NCBI RefSeq assembly: GCF_037042905.1
Contig: NC_087251.1
Span: forward strand, 32,366,001 to 32,430,000
Reading direction: 5' to 3'
Source: Lytechinus pictus
Taxonomy: Eukaryota
Length of the DNA stretch: 64,000 bases
Position numbers and translations under genes: made by a program. This document shows, piece by piece, positions 3,151-42,407 of this stretch; positions within the stretch are counted from its first letter, which is position 1; every line of letters starts with the position of its first letter. The notes under the pieces are model-generated. The model was given only the letters and a program-made list of their open reading frames with translations. It was not told the origin of the DNA and ran no database searches.

Positions 3151-3292
3151 ATTATAACCTAACATAAACTTTGGTTGCTTGGTATTTTAGTTGATAAACA
3201 ATTATTTATTCATAGAATATCACGCTACAAGGATCTCCTCGGTATACTGAATTCCATAATGCCGAAGGAGACTATATTTTATATATATATAT

Positions 3293-3353
3293 ATCACGGG
3301 CGCTCGCTTAATGAGCACCAAAGATCATCGTTCTACAAAAAAGATACTGCATA

Positions 3354-3410
<57 letters not shown>

Positions 3411-3542
3411 TGTGTGAAAGAAATGGATTAAGAGAACAATGGTAGGCGTAGCTTAAATCATGGTTTAAGCTACGCCTACCATTGTTCTCTTCATCCATTT
3501 TTTTTACACAATATTTAAATAAAAGAGTTGCCAAAGCTGTTG

Positions 3543-3604
<62 letters not shown>

Positions 3605-3665
3605 TGCGGTATCTATTTTTGTAGAATGATGATCTTTGGTGCTCATTAAGCGAGCGCCCGTGATA
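3293..3665. mobile_element. Fold-back element embedded in (TA)n
   Basis: ~60-bp inverted repeats (atcacgggcgctcgcttaatgagcaccaaagatcatcgttctacaaaaa...gcatata at 3293 and its reverse complement ending ~3665) enclose TA runs. The same motif recurs at ~4121-4165 (-) and 4741 (+). Confidence 0.75.
3409..3512. repeat. 104-bp near-perfect palindrome
   Basis: attgtgtgaaagaaatggattaagagaacaatggtaggcgtagcttaaatca|tggtttaagctacgcctaccattgttctcttcatccattttttttacacaat; about 4 mismatches over the 52-bp arms. Confidence 0.95.
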
Positions 3666-4169
3666 TATATATTGTATACTGGATTATGTTTACGACAAAT
3701 CTAAAATTATCCCGAGTGTAGGTTTATTACTGTCATCGAGGCCGAAGGCCGAGGTGAAGAAGACCTGCGCGATTTATAATTTTATATTTGGAGTTTTATT
3801 ATAGTCCAGTAATATTGTATGATAGAACGTTCACTATTCATCACCGAGGCCGAGGACTACGGAATACTGTTATTTTGATCTGATTTCGAAGACACTTTCA
3901 TTACTTTTCTTGGTTTATTTTATTCTGGGAATCCGCTTGGTTTCGAGTTAGACTGTTTCCTATTATAACCTAACATAAACTTGGTTGCTTGGTATTTTAG
4001 TTTATAAACAATGATGTATTCATAGAGTATTAAGCTTCAATGGTCTTGGTATACTGAATTCCATAATGCCGAAGCAGACTATGTATATATATATATATAT
4101 ATATCATATATAAATTATCTGTTTAGAACGATGATCTTTGGTGCTCATTAAGCGAGCGCCCTTGATATA

Positions 4170-4737
4170 TAATAGTGTATACTGGATTATATTTACGACA
4201 AATCTAAAATTATCCCGAGTGTAGGTTTATTACTGTCATCGAGGCCGAATGCCGAGGTGAAGAAGACCTGCACGATTTATAATTTTATATTTGGAATTTT
4301 ATTATAGTCCAGTAATATTGTATGATAGAACGTTCACTATTCATTACAGTAAATTGCACAATGCCTACTTAGTTTGTTGCACGCGAGCAAATGGGAGGCT
4401 GAATGTCAAATATTCGTACCGTTGCAACAATTACCATCCAAAAATGTACCGTCCATCATATAAAGTTGCACAAGTCAGGAAAAGGTGACGTCACTAATAA
4501 AATTAAGATTCGACGCATTGCATGCGCTTAGTAAATGCAGACGCGCAGGACTGACTGGCTAAATGCGCATTGTTTTCAATCGATATACTCCCCATTCATT
4601 TAACACGGGTTTTACCCTCCAAAAATCGAAAGTTATATTGTACACAATTATGTACAATATAACTTTTTGCAGGGAGGTCACGTGGTACCAATCTAGCCAA
4701 TCACAGCTCGTATTTTATTACCACTATTTACTATATA
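4170..4737 (+). mobile_element. Crypton-like non-autonomous element (partial second copy at ~3670-3841)
   Basis: Imperfect hairpin actggattat...tatagtccagt centred on cgaggccgaa(g/t)gccgagg. The distal end has the palindrome gttatattgtaca...tgtacaatataac followed by gccaatcacagctcg. This layout resembles non-autonomous Cryptons of marine invertebrates (recognised from memory). Confidence 0.55.
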
Positions 4738-13157: not shown

Positions 13158-13636
13158 TGTTCCATCAACCGTATATTTTTGTAGGTGTGCATTAACTTCC
13201 TAAGTGAAAGAGAACTAAAAAACGAAAACGAGTAAAAGGTATAGGCGTATATAGTGAACATGTTATGAATTCTACTCGGAGTTTTAATTAATGCAAACCT
13301 ACAAAAATGTACGGTTGATCCCATCTAGAGTATTTTAACGGAGTTACCCTTTCCTGATTTGAGTGAGGTGAATTATGCGTAAATCATTACCATTGTTCCA
13401 TCAACCGTATATTTTATGTAGGTGTGCATTAACTTCCTAAATGAAAGAGAACTAATAAACGAAAACGAGTAAAAGGTATAGGTGTATATAGTGAACATGT
13501 TATGAATTGTTCTACTCGGAGTTTTAATTAATGCAAACCTACAAAAATGTACGGTTGATCCCATCTAAAGTATTTTAACGGAGTTACACTTTCCTGATTT
13601 GAGTGAGGTGAATTATGCGTAAATCATTACCATTGT
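13158..13636 (+). repeat. Tandem duplication of a ~236-bp unit containing a fold-back
   Basis: Units start at 13158 and 13394 and are highly similar. Each has 32-bp inverted repeats (13164-13195 vs 13288-13319, 30/32 matching). Confidence 0.95.
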
Positions 13637-20175: not shown

Positions 20176-23100
20176 TTTGATTGATTTTATTTTATTTTAT
20201 TTTATTCGTCAAGAATATCACAGGAGATTACAATGAAATTGGAGAATACCTTGACAGGATAGCCCCTGAAAGCCGAAAGGCTTATTTCCAATGGGGTCCT
20301 ATAGTTAGTATAAAACATTAACATATTGTAACAAAAAGTATAAACTATGACAAGTACTGGAATATGGTAAAAAATAAAATAAAATACATACATACATATC
20401 CATCAGTCAAATGATATGCAAACATCTGAAGCAAACAACAATCCTCCTAATATATGAAACAAGATTATATTTTAACATACCCTACATTATCTACAATACT
20501 AGAGACCAACTGTACAAAATGTGTGATTTTTACTGGTAATACTGCTCTTGGGTAGCTTCCAGTTTTAGGTGCTTCTTTAATGCACTCTTAAATTGAGAAA
20601 ATATTTTAACTGCTTTTACTTGATTAGGAAGAGCATTCCAAGATAGGATGCCATTAAAATAAAAAGTGTTCCCTATATGTCTTTCACGTTTTGGTAATAC
20701 AAAATTAAAATTACTATTTCGAGTACCGTACCTATGGATATTTGATACACGGGTGAAATTATTTGCTATATAATGATCTAAATGTATCCGAATAGAATAT
20801 TTTATGCACGTGGTGTAATACTAATTGTTGTGATCTGTGATCTACATGAAGTAATCCTGCCTTTCCAAGTTCATTACATCCGACATGTGCTCTTGGTCCT
20901 AAAACATTTACGTATCTCACAATTTTATTTTGAATTATTCTTAGCTTTTTCTTATCCGTAACACCCAGACTACCGTACCAAGCCGCATTAGCATAGTCGA
21001 ATAGACATTGTATTAAAGCAAAGCATGAAATACGTCTAGACTTCATATTCAAACAGGTTTGATATCTATACAAAAAATTCAAGCGTGAATTTGCCTTTTT
21101 GACGATTGAGTCTACCAAACCCGTCCATGATAGGTTACTTGTTAAATTAATTCCCAAATATTTCACTGAATGTTTTCTGTCAATTACCTGATTATTATGT
21201 GAAACCTTGAAATCGTGTGTATATCTTAACTTTCGTTTCGAACAAAATAAAATGCTTTCTGTTTTCCCAACATGTAAACTAAGCTTGTTGTCAGACATCC
21301 ATTCAATGCAATTTGCCAAATCTGCACTAAGTTTGTTATCAATTATCTTGGGATTTGTATCTGAATATAGCAAGACACTATCATCAGCATATAAAATTAA
21401 TTTAGATTCGTTAATACAAGTACACATATCATTGATGTAAGACATAAAAAGAATGTGGCCTAAAATGCTTCCTTGAGGGACTCCCCATTTAATAGGCAGT
21501 GAATCAGAAAGAACCGTCTGCATGGTAACTACTTGATGACGGTTAGATAAATATGATCTAAACCATGTCACACAAGCAGAGTCTAAACCCATCACTTCTA
21601 ATTTCTTTAAAAGTATGTTATGACTTACAGTATCAAAGGCTTTTTGTAAGTCTAGGAGAACCATTCCAACCATGCGCCCATGTGAAATTTCGTTCCTGAT
21701 AAAATCTGTTAAATGTATTAAACAAGTTTCAGTGGAATTTCCGTTACGAAAGTCGGACTGAAATTTATATATTAGCTTGGTTTCTTGAAAGTATTTCTCC
21801 ACTTGAGCATGAACGGATTTTTCCAAGATTTTCGACACTACACTTAATACACTTATATGCCTACAATTACTTACGTCAGTTTTATCTTTCTTTTTATGTA
21901 GCGGGGTAATTTTTGCAAATTTCATATCATCAGGAAAGGTAGAAGACATAAGAGATGAATTAATAACATAATTCAAAGGTTTGTACAAATTTCTTGCCCC
22001 ATCTTTTAAAAATCTTGCAGGTATCATATCTAGATACTTTTTGATATTTTCAACTTATTTAGTTCACCTAAAACAAATTTTTCTGTAACAGGGGAAAAAT
22101 GAAAACTACCTTTTGAAATACCCTTTTCTTCATAAAACTTTTGAAATTGGTCACTTTCTGCATGAAATTTGTTTGTATTTACTGGTAATTTACAAACTAG
22201 CTTGACGGCCACAGTCGTAAAGTAACGATTAAGCTCATTTGCAATTTTAGCCTTATCATGAGTTAATTCACCTTGCACATTAATAACCGTTTTTTTATCA
22301 CATTTCCCTTTACTTTTTAGACCTAAACTTTTCAAATTCTTCCACAATTTTCTAGAGTCATGTTTGTTTTCTTCGATTTGTTCTTGAAAGTATTCGTTTT
22401 TGGCACTTCTTACCTTCCTTTGAACTAAATTCCTTAAAACTTTATATTTTCTTTCAAGGTCTATATTGCCAATATTCCTTTTCATACTTTTATAAGCTAC
22501 ATTTCTCTCTTTAATTAAAACAATAATTTCATGGTTCATCCATTTTTCAGTTGATTGCTTAATCCTTACCTCTTTCAGAGGTGCGCTCATATCTATAATT
22601 GATAAGAATGTAGATTTAAAATTTGCCCAAGCCATATTTACATCGTTACATTCAGTTACCTTGGACCAGTCTGATCGGGATAACTGTAAGTTGAAATCAT
22701 CTACATTATAACCTTTTAATCTCCTGATGGATACAGTTCTGTGGTGCCCAAATACGGGCCTGACAATCTTTCTTGAATAATAAATTAATAAATGATCACT
22801 TATACCTAGATCAATAACACCACTTTGACCAATATGCTCTACTTTACTACATTATATGTGATCTATCAGGGAGGAAGATGTCTGAGTTGTACGTGTGGGC
22901 AGCGTTACAAGTTGGCTTAAACCACTTAGATTAAGTATATTATCATATTTCTGGGATAAAGGAGACTTTTTCGAAAGGCAAATATTCATGTCCCCTAAGA
23001 CTATAATCTCATCATCTTTTTTAAATTTTTCTAAAGTGTCAGAGAGTGATTCAATGAATTTATTATCTTTAGGAGGTCTGTAAAGAGCACCCAGTGTAAT

Positions 23101-23590
23101 GGGCTTTGTCCGAGGCAATATAATATTGATCCACAATGATTCAATATTTCTTGAAGTCAAGTCTTCTCTTATATTAAATGCAATGTCGTTTCTTATGTAG
23201 AGACAAACACCACCACCTAGCCCACATTCACGATCTTTACGTAATATACAGTATCCATCTATACATACTTCTTCATCATTTACAGATGAGTTTAACCATG
23301 TTTCAGTGATGGCAATAATAGCTATTTTACGTTTAGAAAAAAGAAGCCGAAGTTCGGATATTTTATTCAATATTGATCTCACGTTTAAATGAATGAAATG
23401 CAACTCTTTTGTCTCAAACTTTTCTTCAAAGGACTTATACACTGTTGTTTTATCAGACGGTGGGGTATTATTTACATGTTCAGTGGTAGGCAAAAGTGGT
23501 TCGGTGTGACCAACATTTGTTTGAATGGGGTGCAAGAATAAGGAATCACAAAAAGGCGGTAAAGAGCATAGTTTGAATAACGGCATTAAA
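20176..23590 (-). mobile_element. 5'-truncated CR1/L2-group non-LTR retrotransposon
   Basis: ORF2 remnants (EN + RT), a 3' UTR with a stem-loop at 20255-20300, and an (AATAA)n/(AATC) tail at ~20176-20206. No ORF1 is visible. Confidence 0.95.
20530..23586 (-). pseudogene. Disrupted LINE ORF2: APE endonuclease + reverse transcriptase
   Basis: EN motifs HLNVRS, ITETWL, YRPP, GDMN, IDHI and SDH; RT motifs LDLQKAFD, GVPQGSILG, YADD and KYLG; C-terminal WNALP...FKSALKKHL ending in TAA at 20530. Lesions: in-frame TAA at 22852, frameshift at ~22035, frameshift at ~20780-20800. Confidence 0.95.
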
Positions 23591-23784
23591 AATAGGGGTA
23601 TATAACTTCATGTTTATATCCAGTTTCAATAATGTATGTTTTAAAGTACCAGTCTTGATCATTACTCATTTTAGGCCATTGGCTTTCCCACCAGACGTTG
23701 TTTTTTTCTTTCATTTTGTGGCATTTCATTTGTGTGTGGATGGGTGTGTATGTCTGTGTTGTGCTATTTTTTGCTTACCTTAAC

Positions 23785-23810
23785 CATGGAGGTATAAAAA
23801 TAGCTCCATG
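23785..23810. mobile_element. 26-bp TIR remnant with 7-bp TSD (putative P-superfamily footprint)
   Basis: ccttaac|CATGGAGGTATAAAAATAGCTCCATG|ccttaac. Confidence 0.7.
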
Positions 23811-23849
23811 CCTTAACTGACATATCAATAAACTACCTATAAGTTATAC

Positions 23850-23877
23850 CATGGAGCTATAAAACACTAGCTCCATG
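23850..23877. mobile_element. 28-bp TIR remnant with 7-bp TSD (putative P-superfamily footprint)
   Basis: gttatac|CATGGAGCTATAAAACACTAGCTCCATG|gttatac. Confidence 0.75.
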
Positions 23878-25801
23878 GTTATACCAAAACTTCCGTCGAT
23901 TGGGGGAATATAGCCATGCATAGTTATTTAAACATTTTTCCAACCTTTTTGTAACTTTTCAACAACTTTAGTATTAGTCGATCATACACAGTTTGAGAAA
24001 ATAAAACCACACTGAATTTATTCATACAACCTCTACTCTTTGCTTTACATTAAAATGTCTGCATGCTGTGTTAATTGTTCTACATCGCAATTCACTGAAT
24101 GTATCCTTGTGTCAGGAAAAAAACAGGCCCCCTGTGATTTTTCAAGTAGTGAAAAAAAAGAGGGAGAAAAAGAGAGAAAATGGGGGAGAGAGAAGAAAAA
24201 AGGAGTATGATATCAGAGGTCCAAGTCGTGTTCAGCTATATATTGCCACTATTATTCAACTGAGAAAAACATTTCTTCTTATTATTAAGGTGTACTTGCC
24301 TCCCCTCTACCCATCTTATAAAAACATCCTGTCGCCGCCCCTGCTGTAAATATTACACCCCCGCCCCATTTCAGCTGCGAGGATTTCTTCATAGTGATTT
24401 GAAATATAGACATTATCATAAGGAACTGTTATCATGTTCTACCTGTGTATGCGTCTGATGTCTCGATGGGTAAAGATTATTGCGCCTGACTTACCGCGTG
24501 CTGACTCAATGTTACGCTCTCTGACGTCACCTTATTTTAACCCCGAATGTCTCCTCTCGATCTTATTTAAAGGTACCTCATGCCTCCATCGTATCCACGC
24601 AGCCCCTAACCCCATCCCGCTCCCCCCCCCCCCCCCTCTCGCTCCCCCTCTCTCTCTCTCTCTCTCCATCTGTCTCATTCTCTTTCTCAGTCATCTTCGT
24701 GCGATCCATCTTTAAGGTCATACACATATTATATAGACATAAGGAAATCATAAATATTTTAATGAAATGGAAGCATTTACTGAGGATCATCTTAGCTATC
24801 ACCATCTTCATGATCTTCCTGTTTAATAACCGAATTTGTCTATTCTCAAGACATATGCCATGCTATACAAATTATAATTTATCCATCAGTGATTGAGATT
24901 TTATCGTAGTTTGATAAAACAAATCAACTACACACAGAACTATATTCGTATTCATTTAGAACAAATGCATTCTGAAATTTCCTGAAAGTGATGTCAAAAG
25001 CCAGAGAATGGGAATTTTCCCATGGAAAAAAAAATCAGAAATAAGGGCAATAGACAAGTAAAGCGTGTCAAAATAATGGAAACTTTTTCAATAATTTTTA
25101 TCTTTGGATCCGATTGGATGTGTCGAAAAGTCAAAATGCATCCTAAACAATATTTTTGGTATGCAAAAAGAAAACATATTACCCTGGCATCAGTGAATGT
25201 CACGGAAAATTATTTCCAGTTCAGACTAACAATAATCCACCCCATTACATCAGAATATGAAATTAGATTTTGAACCTTCCAAATGTGGATTTTCAAATGT
25301 CTTTTGCTTTTTCTACCAAATTGTGAATATTAGATGCTAATAAACAAAGAAAAAAAAACCGATGTCGCAACTACATCGATTGGACTTGCCTCCGATAATA
25401 CGCGACGTAGATATTAAAACTGCACGGTTGGAAGCCTGCATTAGAAGGATCTGTAATCAATCGATTGCCTAAGCTCCTCCGCTACCGACTGGAATAAATT
25501 AAATCTAATGGCTTGCACCCTGTTCGATTTGTATTTGCATGTCAATTAACACGTATTACGTCATAGATTCTATCTATCACGAGCAAAGCATTGTGACGAA
25601 GGCAGTATGAAATGACAACGACAGCAAAAGACGACAAATTATTGTTACGAGTTTCTTCCGAGAATCTAATAGATCTATTGTGATACACGTAATGTTTTTG
25701 TTGATATTTACTTGAATACGGAGAATCGGAGATCGTTATAGGAAAAATTAAAATGATAAATTGAAATTGAATCTTTCTTACAACGGACCCCAGAACTCGG
25801 A

Positions 25802-26156
25802 GATTTATTTCCAATTCGTCTAATGCCAATTCTTCCAATTGCCAACGCGTCTACTGTCATTTGGTCTACCATCAGTTCGTCCACTATCCTCATGGTCTAA
25901 TTACAATTTCGTCTAATTTAGTCCATATACATTTGGTCTAAGTGTTGATTATGCAAAATGAATGAAAATGAAATGGAAATTACACCAACCGGTTATGAGA
26001 CGAAATTGACATAGACGTAATGGTGATTAGACGAAGTGATGATTGGACCAAATGGTTGTTAGACGAAATGTTGATGGACGGAATGTCATTAGACTAAATG
26101 AAATTAGACCATTTGGTGAGTGGACGAGTTGGCACTAGACGAATTGGCAATTTACC
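25802..26156. mobile_element. MITE with inverted arrays of 15-16 bp subrepeats (Merlin/MULE-like)
   Basis: The left array of ccaattcgtcta-like units is mirrored by tagacgaa.tgg units on the right, ending ...TAGACGAATTGGCAATTTACC. Flanks are aactcgga and aacttaga. Confidence 0.85.
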
Positions 26157-36705: not shown

Positions 36706-36751
36706 CTACTACTACTACTACTACTATTATTACTAAAGTAATACTACTACT

Positions 36752-36784
<33 letters not shown>

Positions 36785-36816
36785 TACTACTACTGTACTA
36801 CTACTACTACTACTAC

Positions 36817-36866
<50 letters not shown>

Positions 36867-36889
36867 ATTTACTACTACTACTACTACTG

Positions 36890-36925
<36 letters not shown>

Positions 36926-37083
36926 AACTACGACTACTACTACTACTTTACTACTACTACTACTACTACTATTACTATTACTACTACTACTTCTTCTACT
37001 ACTACTACTATTACTACTACTACTACTACTACTATTATACTACGAATACTACTACTACTACTGCTACTACTATACTACTACTA

Positions 37084-37134
<51 letters not shown>

Positions 37135-37138
37135 CACA

Positions 37139-37178
<40 letters not shown>

Positions 37179-37196
37179 ATACTCCTACTACTACTA

Positions 37197-37229
<33 letters not shown>

Positions 37230-37237
37230 CACAACAG

Positions 37238-37269
<32 letters not shown>

Positions 37270-37280
37270 ACTACTACTAT
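36706..37280 (+). repeat. Long imperfect (CTA)n microsatellite
   Basis: About 570 bp of cta units with scattered variants and indels. Confidence 0.98.
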
Positions 37281-39487: not shown

Positions 39488-39885
39488 CAAACCCTCACAC
39501 TCACCCACACCCACTCACCTATGACCTCTCCCTCTCTTTCCCCCTCTCTCTCTCCTTAATCTCGGTCTCCAAACCCTTCCACCTTGTCTTCATTTAACTT
39601 TCATTCACGCAAGGAAGTAAAAAAAAAAACACACTCACCATACCCTCACGCACACACACGCACCTACGCACTCTCCCTCCCCTTTCTCCAGTTTTCATGT
39701 ACAAACCCTCACACTCACCCACACCCACTCACCTATGACCTCTCCCTCTCTTTCCCCTCTCTCTCTCCTTAACCTCGGTCTCCAAACCCTTCCACCTTGT
39801 CTTCATTTAACTTTCATTCACGCAAGGAAGTAAAAAAAAAAAACACACTCACCATACCCTCACGCACACACACACTAACGCACTT
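39488..39885 (+). repeat. Tandem duplication, ~214-bp period, C/T-rich
   Basis: caaaccctcacactcaccc...caccataccctcacgcacacac occurs at 39488 and 39702, near-identical. Confidence 0.95.
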
Positions 39886-41140
39886 ACTCTCTTACCAAAT
39901 ACTCAAGGGCTCTCTTATTCCACATCTACATGCTCCTTCTCTCCCATTTTCCCCTTTCTTCCCCTCTCCCACCCCCTCTCTCTCTCTTTCTTTCTTCCTT
40001 CATCCTTGCACCCCTCCACCCATCTATATCTTTACTTTTCTACACCATTCATCCTTAATCAGCTTTTCACACATTCTCAGTGCTGATATTATCACAACCT
40101 TGCTATTTTTAGCATTTGCAATTTCCTTTTTATGTGAAAATGAGAACATTGAACAGTGCTTTTGATAATCACATGTTACAAATTAAGAAATTAAATTCGC
40201 TTTATCTAATCATGTTCATCAATAATGATGTTTAAAGGCCAATTCAATATATCATTAACACAAAACAGGAAATATGTCGGACTGGTATTCTAACTATAGG
40301 ATAATGACTTTTTTTAGGCTCACTTAAGGTTAGTAGATTGTTCATTATTAACAGTTTTGTAAATGTTTGCCAAAGTCCTAGTATTTGTTTTTTAAAAACT
40401 AATAATATTTGATAATTCCAAAAAAATATATTTTCATAATTGTAAATGTGAATTCATTACTATGTTGTTTGTTTCAGAACAAAACACTAAAATTTCGGGT
40501 AGAAAATGGAAATAAAATGGAAATATAGATTGGAGCTTTCAATGCCAATTAGCGAACTCGTGGGTGAACCCCATCTTTAATTAACCCCGGAATCGTTTGC
40601 TCTGTACTTGTAACATATCTGAGTTTTGTTATCACACGTCTTCAAATGTGCGTCTGGTGCCTCATGATCATCACCAATCGCTACATCACTCTCCATAGCC
40701 ACCAATATATTGCTTTGAAATGAACTCGTGAATCGTGATGTATCGAATACGAGCCACTTCAGTGATAACTCTTCCTATATAGGCGCACAGTGATACCACC
40801 AATGGGGCCATGTCTGTAGTCCCGAGTAATATAAATAGATGTTACAAGTGATGGGAATCCCAAGAGGGAGTCGATCGTAATTTGAAGCCCATCTGGTCCA
40901 GAAGGTGTAGGGAACGAAGCATCTGAGATGTATAAGACACAGCTACAAGAAAGTGGAAGAGAGGGAGGGGGGTGGAGGGAGACAGAGAGAGAGAGAGAGA
41001 GACATAAAGGGACAGAGTATACGTGAGAGGGGGGGTGAAAACTAATGTCTTTGGTGTCTGTTCTAACCTTGTCGGCTTTGTAACTTCGTAGGTTTTGCAA
41101 ATGATAGACTAAATGAAGGTGAAACAGAATGACAATTTAA

Positions 41141-41747
41141 AGGTCAAGTCCACCTCAGGAAAATGTTGATTTGAATAAATAGAGAAAAATCAAACAAGCT
41201 TAATGCTGAAAATTTGATCAAAATCGGATGTAAAATAAGAAAGTTATTACATTTTAATGTTTCGCTTATTTTTCACAAAACAGTTATGTACACAACTCAG
41301 TTGTATGCAAATGAGAGAGTCCATGATGTCCATCACTCATGATTTCTTTTGTTTTTTATTGTTTGAATTATACAATATTTCAATTTTTACCAATTTGACA
41401 TCAAGGACCAAATTAACTTAACCATAAAATGTTATAACAATGGTAATGCCACATGTTCAGAGAGGAATAAAACTTTGTTTTACAGGACAACGATGAGAAA
41501 ATTAGAATATTCCATATTTCATATAATAAAATACAAAAGAAATAGTAGTGAGTGAGTGATGTCATCAGTCCCCTCATTTGCATACTGACCAGGATGTGCA
41601 TATAAATGTTTTGTGAAATTAAGCGAAACTTTAAAATGTCATAACTTTCTTATTTTACATCCGATTTTGATGAAATTTTCAGTGTTTTGCCTGTTGGATT
41701 TTTCTCTTTTTATTCAAATCAACATTTTGTTGGGGTGGACTTGTCCT
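41141..41747. mobile_element. Kolobok-type MITE with TTAA TSD
   Basis: ttaa|AGGTCAAGTCCACC ... GGTGGACTTGTCCT|ttaa, with ~190-bp imperfect TIRs (aaaatcggatgtaaaataagaaagttat / ataactttcttattttacatccgatttt). Confidence 0.92.
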
Positions 41748-42407
41748 TTAAGTAAAATGTATTTTCATGGCGAAATGACCTCGGATTTAGAAAATCTTAG
41801 ATGGTTAGTCTTGTTCCAAAATTTGTGGATAAGTTTATGATCTAAGCCATAATTATAAAGGTTTGGACATTCAAAGTTGTACGGAAAAGTGAACCATGTC
41901 GTTTAATAGAAATCATAATACTCACACACACACATACACAAGACTTTCAGTGAATAAACAAAACCTGCACATGACTTTGCCGTCACTTTTGTATCGTGGA
42001 TTTTGCTTATTCTTATTTGCAACGACAATGCATGCAGTGACATCATCCTTTTAAGTTCCATTGGTCTTGAACTTGACGAATAAAGCCTATAGTTACAGGA
42101 CCAGAAACCCTCTCAATCACACTTAAGACTCTTTATTCAGTCAATGAGTTCTTCTCGTGAGTATGAAATAAGATTTATCTATTTTGGAGAGCACTCTAGA
42201 TGGCCCCATTTGTTCGGTGTACTCTATCCAAGATCGTAAAGTAAGTTGGTTATTCCGAGCTTACAGAGTGTCAGGAAGATAGAGAGTTAAACAATTTGGA
42301 TTATATTCGTTGCTATAGGATCGGGAAGAGGAAAAATAGAAGTAGATGATGTTATTTACATCAACGAGCAATCAAATCAATTCTACAAATGATGTGTTAT
42401 ATAAATT

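What the first reader, a model, noticed from the sequence alone, without database searches (positions are those of the whole stretch)
23778..23884. Two adjacent 26-28 bp CATGGAG hairpins, each with its own perfect 7-bp TSD: likely excision footprints of a P-superfamily transposon
Seen: ccttaac|CATGGAGGTATAAAAATAGCTCCATG|ccttaac and gttatac|CATGGAGCTATAAAACACTAGCTCCATG|gttatac lie ~40 bp apart. They share termini but have different TSDs and different junctions, so they are two independent events rather than a duplication. Known: P-superfamily (THAP9-type) elements have CA-starting TIRs and 7-8 bp TSDs, and Drosophila P transposase makes a 17-nt staggered cut that leaves TIR stubs at the donor site, giving ~30-bp footprints. 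Inference: these are scars of a possibly uncatalogued P family, and their proximity suggests local hopping or an insertion hotspot.
Basis: partly seen in the sequence, partly recalled or inferred. Interest (0 to 1): 0.75.

Follow-up and report, generated by a model that had tools for sequence, protein, structure and literature searches.

The report
Paired P-transposon excision scars
Two tiny hairpins in animal DNA are best read as the scars left when two jumping genes related to the fruit-fly P element cut themselves out, a known kind of scar that also turns up, with the same end sequence, in DNA of other animals.

Summary
A contig of a public run spans them without gaps. The same ends occur at 103 distinct metagenome sites; 49 have an exact 7-, 8- or 9-bp duplication, against 4 of 10,302 mismatched flank pairs. 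Their arms stop at 20 nt and join at microhomologies, as in experimental P-element repair junctions. In animal-like contigs of genome G367, long elements with P-type transposase domains, CAT(A/G)GA ends and 7-bp duplications sit among 100 micro-elements whose arms, in the 50 examined, follow such ends for up to 24 nt. Both window duplications score in the top 1% on that target matrix. Verdict: P-superfamily excision footprints (about 0.85), two independent events. Not shown: a parent with CATGGAG ends and a transposase, or an empty allele (no genome is held). The 34-bp cap is not general. The scan noted this kind of scar before, elsewhere in this genome (e1-7810740).

The parts
23778..23784 (.). 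E1 left target-site duplication CCTTAAC
   Evidence: scores above 99.2% of window 7-mers on the target matrix from G367; its reverse complement is the duplication of the 5.8-kb transposase element in L281
23785..23810 (.). E1 footprint, 26 bp: a long arm of about 15-18 nt (G at position 8) joined to a 10-11 nt arm (C at position 8)
   Evidence: the exact join point is inferred because the parent end is unknown
23811..23817 (.). E1 right target-site duplication CCTTAAC
23818..23842 (.). 25-bp unique spacer; the two target sites were 32 bp apart, start to start, before the insertions
23843..23849 (.). E2 left target-site duplication GTTATAC
   Evidence: scores above 99.9% of window 7-mers; its reverse complement matches the Galileo consensus GTATTAC at 6 of 7 (PMC4168063)
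23850..23877 (.). E2 footprint, 28 bp: a long arm of about 18-20 nt joined to a 10-nt arm, possibly through TA microhomology
   Evidence: 30 of 32 letters identical to the site in L067
23878..23884 (.). E2 right target-site duplication GTTATAC

Best explanation
Two P-superfamily DNA transposons of a CATGGAG-ended, 7-bp-duplicating family inserted 32 bp apart at good matches to the GT-N-N-N-AC target. Each was later cut out. P-type transposase cuts one strand at the tip of the element and the other strand well inside the terminal repeat, so each flank keeps a long 3' single-stranded tail of terminal-repeat sequence (17 nt in Drosophila). End joining trimmed the tails and joined them, here one long tail (15-20 nt) to one short tail (10-11 nt), leaving duplication + stub + stub + duplication. 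The hairpins are by-products and have no function of their own. Shown: the anatomy, the target preference, the spread of the same ends with exact duplications in other DNA, and, for related families, the link between stubs and transposase-coding elements. Inferred: that this family's parent encodes a P-type transposase, its cut depth, and why the two sites are so close.
For: Window: exact anatomy; duplications in the top 0.78% and 0.08% of window 7-mers on a matrix built from 26 independent duplications in G367. Same ends elsewhere: 112 metagenome loci, 103 distinct sites, exact duplication at 49 (5 of 7 bp, 40 of 8 bp, 4 of 9 bp), up to 1 mismatch at 62; cross-paired flanks 4 of 10,302; viral loci 0 of 6; prokaryote-genome matches 1 of 63, and that one lies on a non-coding host-like contig. 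Duplication-positive loci are mostly non-coding (ORF cover 0.27 in 49 loci, against 0.61 in 25 negative loci). Junction grammar at 50 distinct 8-bp sites: 24 are 16+16 nt joined at a 6-nt self-complementary word, the rest are shorter overlaps, blunt joins or insertions; longest arm 20 nt where about 8.5 of 50 would exceed it under a uniform join point. L114 holds a one-armed scar between intact duplications. The same classes are in Table 1 of PMC2895639. G367: four elements of 3.1-5.8 kb with CAT(A/G)GA ends and exact 7-bp duplications enclose hits to PF21787 and/or PF21789; the L281 element has PF21787, PF21788 and PF21789 over cut-off. The same genome has 100 CATAGATA...TATCTATG micro-elements (control pattern 0); of 50 examined, 41 distinct by script, 27 have an exact 7-bp duplication, 35 up to 1 mismatch, and arms follow the parent ends for at most 24 nt. 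P-superfamily duplications of 7, 8 and 9 bp are all published (PMC3698922).
Against: No parent with CATGGAG(C/G)TA ends and a transposase was found: none in the window (0 of 262 stop-free frames with a P or THAP domain; no tblastn hit), none in 34 viral loci with a single end, and that 10-mer is not enriched in G367 (61 against 67 control). No empty or full-length allele was seen. The 20-nt cap rests on one lone long end (L044, no partner end, no duplication found), and arms of unsampled subfamilies are under-measured; L303 can be read as a 28-nt arm. No THAP hit falls inside the four G367 elements (0 of 8 hits), so they are P-type by catalytic domains only. 24 of 50 sites carry one identical 26-mer, which a mobile unit would also give.
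Confidence: 0.85

Rival explanations
1. Abortive gap repair: after excision the break copied a short stretch of each end from a sister or ectopic copy and was then joined, giving an extreme internal-deletion derivative. Same transposon and same event class, but the stubs would not report the cut depth.
For: P-element breaks are first channelled into synthesis-dependent repair followed by end joining (PMC2895639). The window's arms cannot be measured against a parent.
Against: Arms stop at 20 nt in 50 of 50 metagenome 8-bp sites and at 24 nt in 35 of 35 duplication-positive G367 sites although the patterns allowed 38-40 nt; copying would not stop at a fixed depth.
Confidence: 0.07
2. The 26-28 bp units are themselves mobile, ultra-short non-autonomous elements inserted as such by a P-type transposase.
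For: 24 of 50 distinct 8-bp sites carry one identical 26-bp palindrome, each with a different perfect duplication; both window duplications are perfect.
Against: E1 and E2 differ in length and junction; lengths run from 22 to 44 bp and 17 to 45 bp; a one-armed form exists (L114); the repeated 26-mer is the product expected from annealing at the tail's one 6-nt self-complementary word, and recurrent junctions are seen experimentally (14 isolates of one junction, PMC2895639 Table 1). P elements need internal transposase-binding sites beyond the terminal repeat (PMC7776569); the G367 stubs end before the conserved GGGATTGG motif of their parents.
Confidence: 0.05
3. Footprints of another superfamily with CA ends (hAT-like, or an unclassified group) that happens to leave long stubs.
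For: The parent of this exact family is unseen; THAP was not detected inside the four G367 elements.
Against: hAT- and Mutator-type excision leaves flank-derived hairpin scars without element ends, and Tc1/mariner leaves 2-3 nt stubs at TA (established knowledge, recalled; not tested here). The G367 elements with the nearest ends carry the P-type RNase H halves and the GTP-binding insertion.
Confidence: 0.02
4. One event copied by a local tandem duplication, or chance, or a regulatory or RNA hairpin.
For: The two inserts share 14 of their first 15 letters and lie 39 bp apart.
Against: The two duplications differ at 4 of 7 positions while each is perfect on both sides; outer flanks match at 3 of 10 and 4 of 10; 0 Rfam matches at E up to 1 in 23300-24400; shuffle controls give none.
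Confidence: 0.01

Closest known systems
Drosophila P-element donor-site repair junctions (17-nt 3' tails; PMC2895639 Table 1, section read; review PMC7776569, passages)
   Same: Duplication + terminal stub + terminal stub + duplication; CATG ends; microhomology, blunt, insertion and one-armed classes.
   Different: 7-bp duplication instead of 8; different terminal sequence after CATG; natural, fixed germ-line scars; relatives show tails of 19-20 and 21-24 nt rather than 17.
Galileo and 1360/Hoppel (P superfamily; PMC4168063 and PMC3698922, passages)
   Same: 7-bp duplication with a palindromic GT...AC preference (Galileo consensus GTATTAC/GTANTAC).
   Different: No footprints are described in the passages searched ('footprint' 0 times in both papers); no long foldback arms are seen here; sequence kinship was not tested.
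BuT5 / D. buzzatii P element (PMC3698922, passages)
   Same: Shows that one P lineage can make 8- or 9-bp duplications, as the CATGGAG-ended sites do across hosts (7, 8, 9 bp).
   Different: BuT5 is a 1-kb mobile MITE with 3-bp terminal repeats, not a scar.
CAT(A/G)GA-ended transposase elements in G367 (L280, L281, L283, L285; found here)
   Same: CAT(A/G)GA ends, exact 7-bp duplications of the same target type, micro-elements made of their ends.
   Different: Another organism and other families: the ends diverge from the window's after 6 letters.

Membership tests
P superfamily | Ends read CA(T)...(A)TG | tested here: met
   conservation of these letters described in PMC2577343 section 12
P superfamily | Target-site duplication of 7-9 bp | tested here: met
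   7 bp, perfect, in 2 of 2; range published in PMC3698922
P superfamily | Palindromic GT...AC target preference | tested here: met
   top 0.78% and 0.08% of window 7-mers; G at position 1 in 0.61 and C at position 8 in 0.61 of 40 symmetrised 8-bp sites
P superfamily | An element with these very ends encodes a THAP + DDE + GTP-binding transposase | tested here: inconclusive
   No genome held; no parent found. Related CAT(A/G)GA ends enclose P-type catalytic domains, but 0 of 8 THAP hits lie inside them
P superfamily | Deep staggered donor cut that leaves long terminal-repeat tails | tested here: inconclusive
   Indirect only: arm ceilings of 20 nt and 24 nt in relatives; the window's own arms have no parent to be measured against
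Excision footprint | Both duplications kept around stubs of the two ends, with variable junctions | tested here: met
Excision footprint | Empty or full-length allele at the same site | not testable with these tools
   Only one run holds the stretch; its contigs show the filled form only, and contigs drop rare variants
MITE (mobile short element) | Uniform length and sequence among copies | tested here: not met
   26 and 28 bp with unlike junctions in the window; 22-44 bp elsewhere, though 24 of 50 share one 26-mer
Tc1/mariner footprint | TA duplication with 2-3 nt stubs (feature recalled) | tested here: not met
   7-bp duplications and arms of 10 nt or more
hAT footprint | Scar built from inverted flank sequence, without element ends (feature recalled) | tested here: not met
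   The insert is shared among unrelated sites and is not a copy of the flank

The most novel reading that the evidence does not exclude
The 26-28 bp CATGGAG palindromes are not only scars: once formed they are picked up again by a P-type transposase and inserted at new sites, often right beside an older copy, which would make them the shortest mobile DNA elements known. The 24 identical 26-mers at 50 sites and the recurring close pairs (window, L064, L114, L329) do not exclude this.
Probability: 0.05. Interest if true: 0.85.

Novelty: new member of a known kind. Interest (0 to 1): 0.4.

Why it matters
The scar type is known from fly experiments, so the two hairpins are not surprising in themselves. 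Their use is as a natural record. Arm ceilings read out where a transposase cuts inside its own ends: 17 nt is measured in Drosophila, while the sites examined here point to 19-20 nt and 21-24 nt in other families, the latter ending just before a conserved subterminal motif. That makes a testable claim that cut depth varies across the P superfamily. One 10-13 bp terminus appears with 7-, 8- and 9-bp duplications in different DNA sources, and the scars count past germ-line excisions that repeat annotation misses because they are so short.

Tried and rejected
Whole-genome scan: no genome is held; MAG handles for L010, L062, L082, L086 were not held either. LINE as a source of empty sites: the neighbouring LINE's similarity to 83 homologues ends near 23600 and its N-terminal zinc-finger part is missing, and multi-copy depth ends near 23569, so the hairpins lie about 180 bp outside a 5'-truncated copy and give no paralogous empty site. 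Extra contigs lay on the hairpins with 3 letters left out at 23796 and 1+2 at 23865/23867 (depth 2-3.3); they may be other loci with shorter junctions, but their flanks were not shown, so they are not counted as evidence. Parent searches that found nothing: viral collection with three end patterns (0, 23 and 11 loci, no paired ends with a duplication in 34 loci) and with a P-type protein (0 confirmed of 4 candidates); PF21787 in G001 (0 of 1) and in 36 MAGs (0 of 36); PF21789 in 401 genomes (1 of 401, G367). A CATGGAGCTA 680 bp from a transposase hit in G367 is inside coding sequence, not an end. The broader CATGGA...TCCATG pattern in G367 (71 against 32 control) was not analysed further. Rfam: 0 matches. 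Literature: searches listed no paper on CATGGAG-ended transposons or on genome-wide natural P footprints (listings only; most subscription papers, Repbase and Dfam are not covered; no supplements were read). bioRxiv 2024.03.22.586318 (passages) gave nothing on ends or footprints in the passages shown.

Full report
Observation. The sequence is as described. E1 is CCTTAAC, a 26-bp insert at 23785-23810, CCTTAAC. E2 is GTTATAC, a 28-bp insert at 23850-23877, GTTATAC. A 25-bp spacer separates them. The end pattern occurs 2 times in the window and never in 100 shuffles. A wider scan for CA...TG inserts with a 7-9 bp duplication found these two only. Both fold as hairpins (z -9.4 and -7.0), which follows from their ends and says nothing on function; Rfam has 0 matches. 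One public run holds the stretch; a contig of it spans 23540-24400 without gaps. It may be the source sample.

Setting. The window is non-coding, microsatellite-rich DNA of about 35% G+C; earlier scan notes call the genome a sea urchin, which I did not test. Of 262 stop-free frames of 55 aa or more, only two, from a broken LINE on the minus strand, pass a Pfam cut-off (endonuclease and reverse transcriptase). Its match to homologues ends near 23600 and multi-copy depth near 23569, so the hairpins are about 180 bp outside a 5'-truncated copy, in single-copy DNA. No P-type transposase remnant is in the window.

Two events, not one. The duplications differ at 4 of 7 positions, each is perfect on both sides, and the outer flanks match at 3 of 10 and 4 of 10. 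The two target sites were 32 bp apart.

The same ends elsewhere. No host genome is held, so public collections were scanned with CATGGAG(C/G)TA-N2-30-TA(C/G)CTCCATG. Viral contigs gave 0 of 6. Prokaryote genomes gave 1 of 63, and that site (L156) lies on a 31-kb contig with ORF cover 0.15 and 61 TACATGTA words, that is host-like DNA inside a MAG. Duplication-positive metagenome loci are also mostly non-coding (0.27 against 0.61). So this terminus is the mark of a real insertion system active in several animal-like DNA sources; which animals was not determined.

Junction grammar. Against the one long end found (L044, a lone end), 50 distinct 8-bp sites break down into two arms: 24 are 16+16 nt overlapping by a 6-nt self-complementary word; 9 have overlaps of 1-4 nt; 2 are blunt; 15 have extra letters, some of which reflect subfamily differences from the reference. 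The longest arm is 20 nt; a uniform join point would put about 8.5 of 50 above that. L114 keeps a 16-nt arm and has lost the other between intact duplications. Table 1 of PMC2895639 (section 7 read) shows the same classes after P excision in flies, from 17-nt 3' tails, with one junction recovered 14 times. E1 and E2 fit the long-arm plus 10-11-nt-arm class also seen in L028, L029, L017, L086 and L067; E2 and L067 share 30 of 32 letters.

Parents and scars in one genome. A family search of 401 genomes found one, G367, a 16-Mb MAG with large animal-like contigs. Four elements of 5,021, 5,821, 3,115 and 3,264 bp have CAT(A/G)GA ends, 38-40 of 40 matching terminal letters and exact 7-bp duplications, and enclose PF21787 and/or PF21789 hits; the L281 element carries both RNase H halves and the GTP-binding insertion over cut-off, and its duplication is the reverse complement of E1's. 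No THAP hit lies inside them (0 of 8). The genome has 100 CATAGATA...TATCTATG micro-elements against 0 for the control pattern. Fifty were fetched: 41 distinct by script (one pair is really one site), 27 with an exact 7-bp duplication, 35 with at most one mismatch, none with an exact 8-bp one; arms follow the parent ends for up to 21-24 nt and stop before the conserved GGGATTGG motif, with L303 as one ambiguous case. This ties such micro-elements directly to P-type transposase elements, though for other families than the window's: CATGGAG(C/G)TA is not enriched in G367 (61 against 67).

Target preference. A matrix from 26 distinct G367 duplications puts E1 in the top 0.78% and E2 in the top 0.08% of window 7-mers. 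Published consensus sites are GTATTAC/GTANTAC for Galileo (PMC4168063, passages) and ATRGTCCGGACWAT for P (PMC2577343, passages and section 12). Duplications of 7, 8 and 9 bp are all reported within the superfamily (PMC3698922, passages).

Why two together. Among 62 duplication-positive metagenome sites, a second end lies within 60 bp in 2 (7.3 kb of flank searched), within 60-300 bp in 0 (28 kb) and within 300-1500 bp in 2 (66 kb) (this count left out L080, whose own duplication fails the test and which has a second end about 190 bp away). In both close cases (L064, L114) the duplications are 5 bp apart. L329 has two scars stacked on one duplication, as the target-restoration model predicts. 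The window's 25-bp spacer fits neither offset. Both sites are strong targets, so a hotspot is enough; re-insertion beside the donor is possible. The 'local hopping' of the review is on a 50-150 kb scale (PMC7776569, passages) and does not explain 32 bp.

Mechanism and odds. Insertion at a GT-N-N-N-AC-type site, excision with a deep staggered cut, end joining of the terminal-repeat tails: 0.85. Abortive gap repair 0.07; mobile ultra-short element 0.05; another superfamily 0.02; duplication or chance 0.01. It works like a P-element footprint. Membership of the P superfamily is likely but rests on ends, duplication and target; the transposase of this family and an empty allele were not seen.

Novelty. 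The scar type is known from Drosophila experiments. My paper searches (listings only) showed no description of this terminus or of natural P footprints across genomes, but Repbase, Dfam, most subscription papers and all supplements were out of reach and may hold the family. The scan reported the same kind of micro-element elsewhere in this genome (e1-7810740); its count of thousands was not checked here, and the idea of reading cut depth from arm lengths comes from that note and was tested here on other DNA. Rated a new member of a known kind, interest 0.4.

Noticed in passing
window 20180-23600, minus strand: Broken, 5'-truncated LINE with endonuclease and reverse transcriptase domains; homologues carry an N-terminal zinc-finger part that this copy lacks; other copies are present in run X1.
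   Followed up: partly
window 3285-3672: 368-bp element with 57-nt, 98% complementary arms starting CACGGGCG inside AT-dinucleotide flanks; part of it is repeated at 3856-4347.
   Followed up: no
window 41137-41751 and 25807-26151: Inverted repeats with 136-nt (89%) and 77-nt (75%) arms, MITE-like.
   Followed up: no
window 13158-13636, 39488-39873, 36706-37279: Two-copy tandem units of 240 and 214 bp at 96-98% identity, and a 570-bp CTA-type microsatellite.
   Followed up: no
L064:197-283 and L114:256-334: Two further side-by-side pairs of CATGGAG scars; in both, the two 8-bp duplications are exactly 5 bp apart. In L114 one scar has a single arm.
   Followed up: partly
L329:94-170: Two scars (17 and 40 bp) stacked on three copies of one 7-bp duplication.
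   Followed up: partly
L041, L042, L104, L109: A subgroup with the same first 13 letters, 17-nt common arms, AT-rich junctions, lengths 38-44 bp and exact 9-bp duplications.
   Followed up: partly
L080:631-869: An 8-bp duplication encloses 223 bp that begin with a complete scar and end with most of another; possibly a repair event with a large insertion or a local duplication.
   Followed up: no
L044:1501-1559: A lone long end of the 8-bp CATGGAG group that runs on past the stub length; no partner end or duplication found.
   Followed up: partly
G367 contigs C4-C19; G001 contigs C1, C11, C14: Two prokaryote genome records hold animal-like, non-coding contigs with eukaryotic transposons; G367 is 16 Mb and has P-type transposase and THAP hits.
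   Followed up: partly
L115, L121-L124, L126, L128 and others: A conserved 28-bp CATGGAG palindrome without duplication in 25 loci, mostly Latescibacterota genomes; unrelated to the scars, perhaps an operator or RNA hairpin.
   Followed up: no
L225:7360-7398: A 25-bp CATAGAG-ended micro-element with an exact 7-bp duplication, 3 kb from the L156 site.
   Followed up: no
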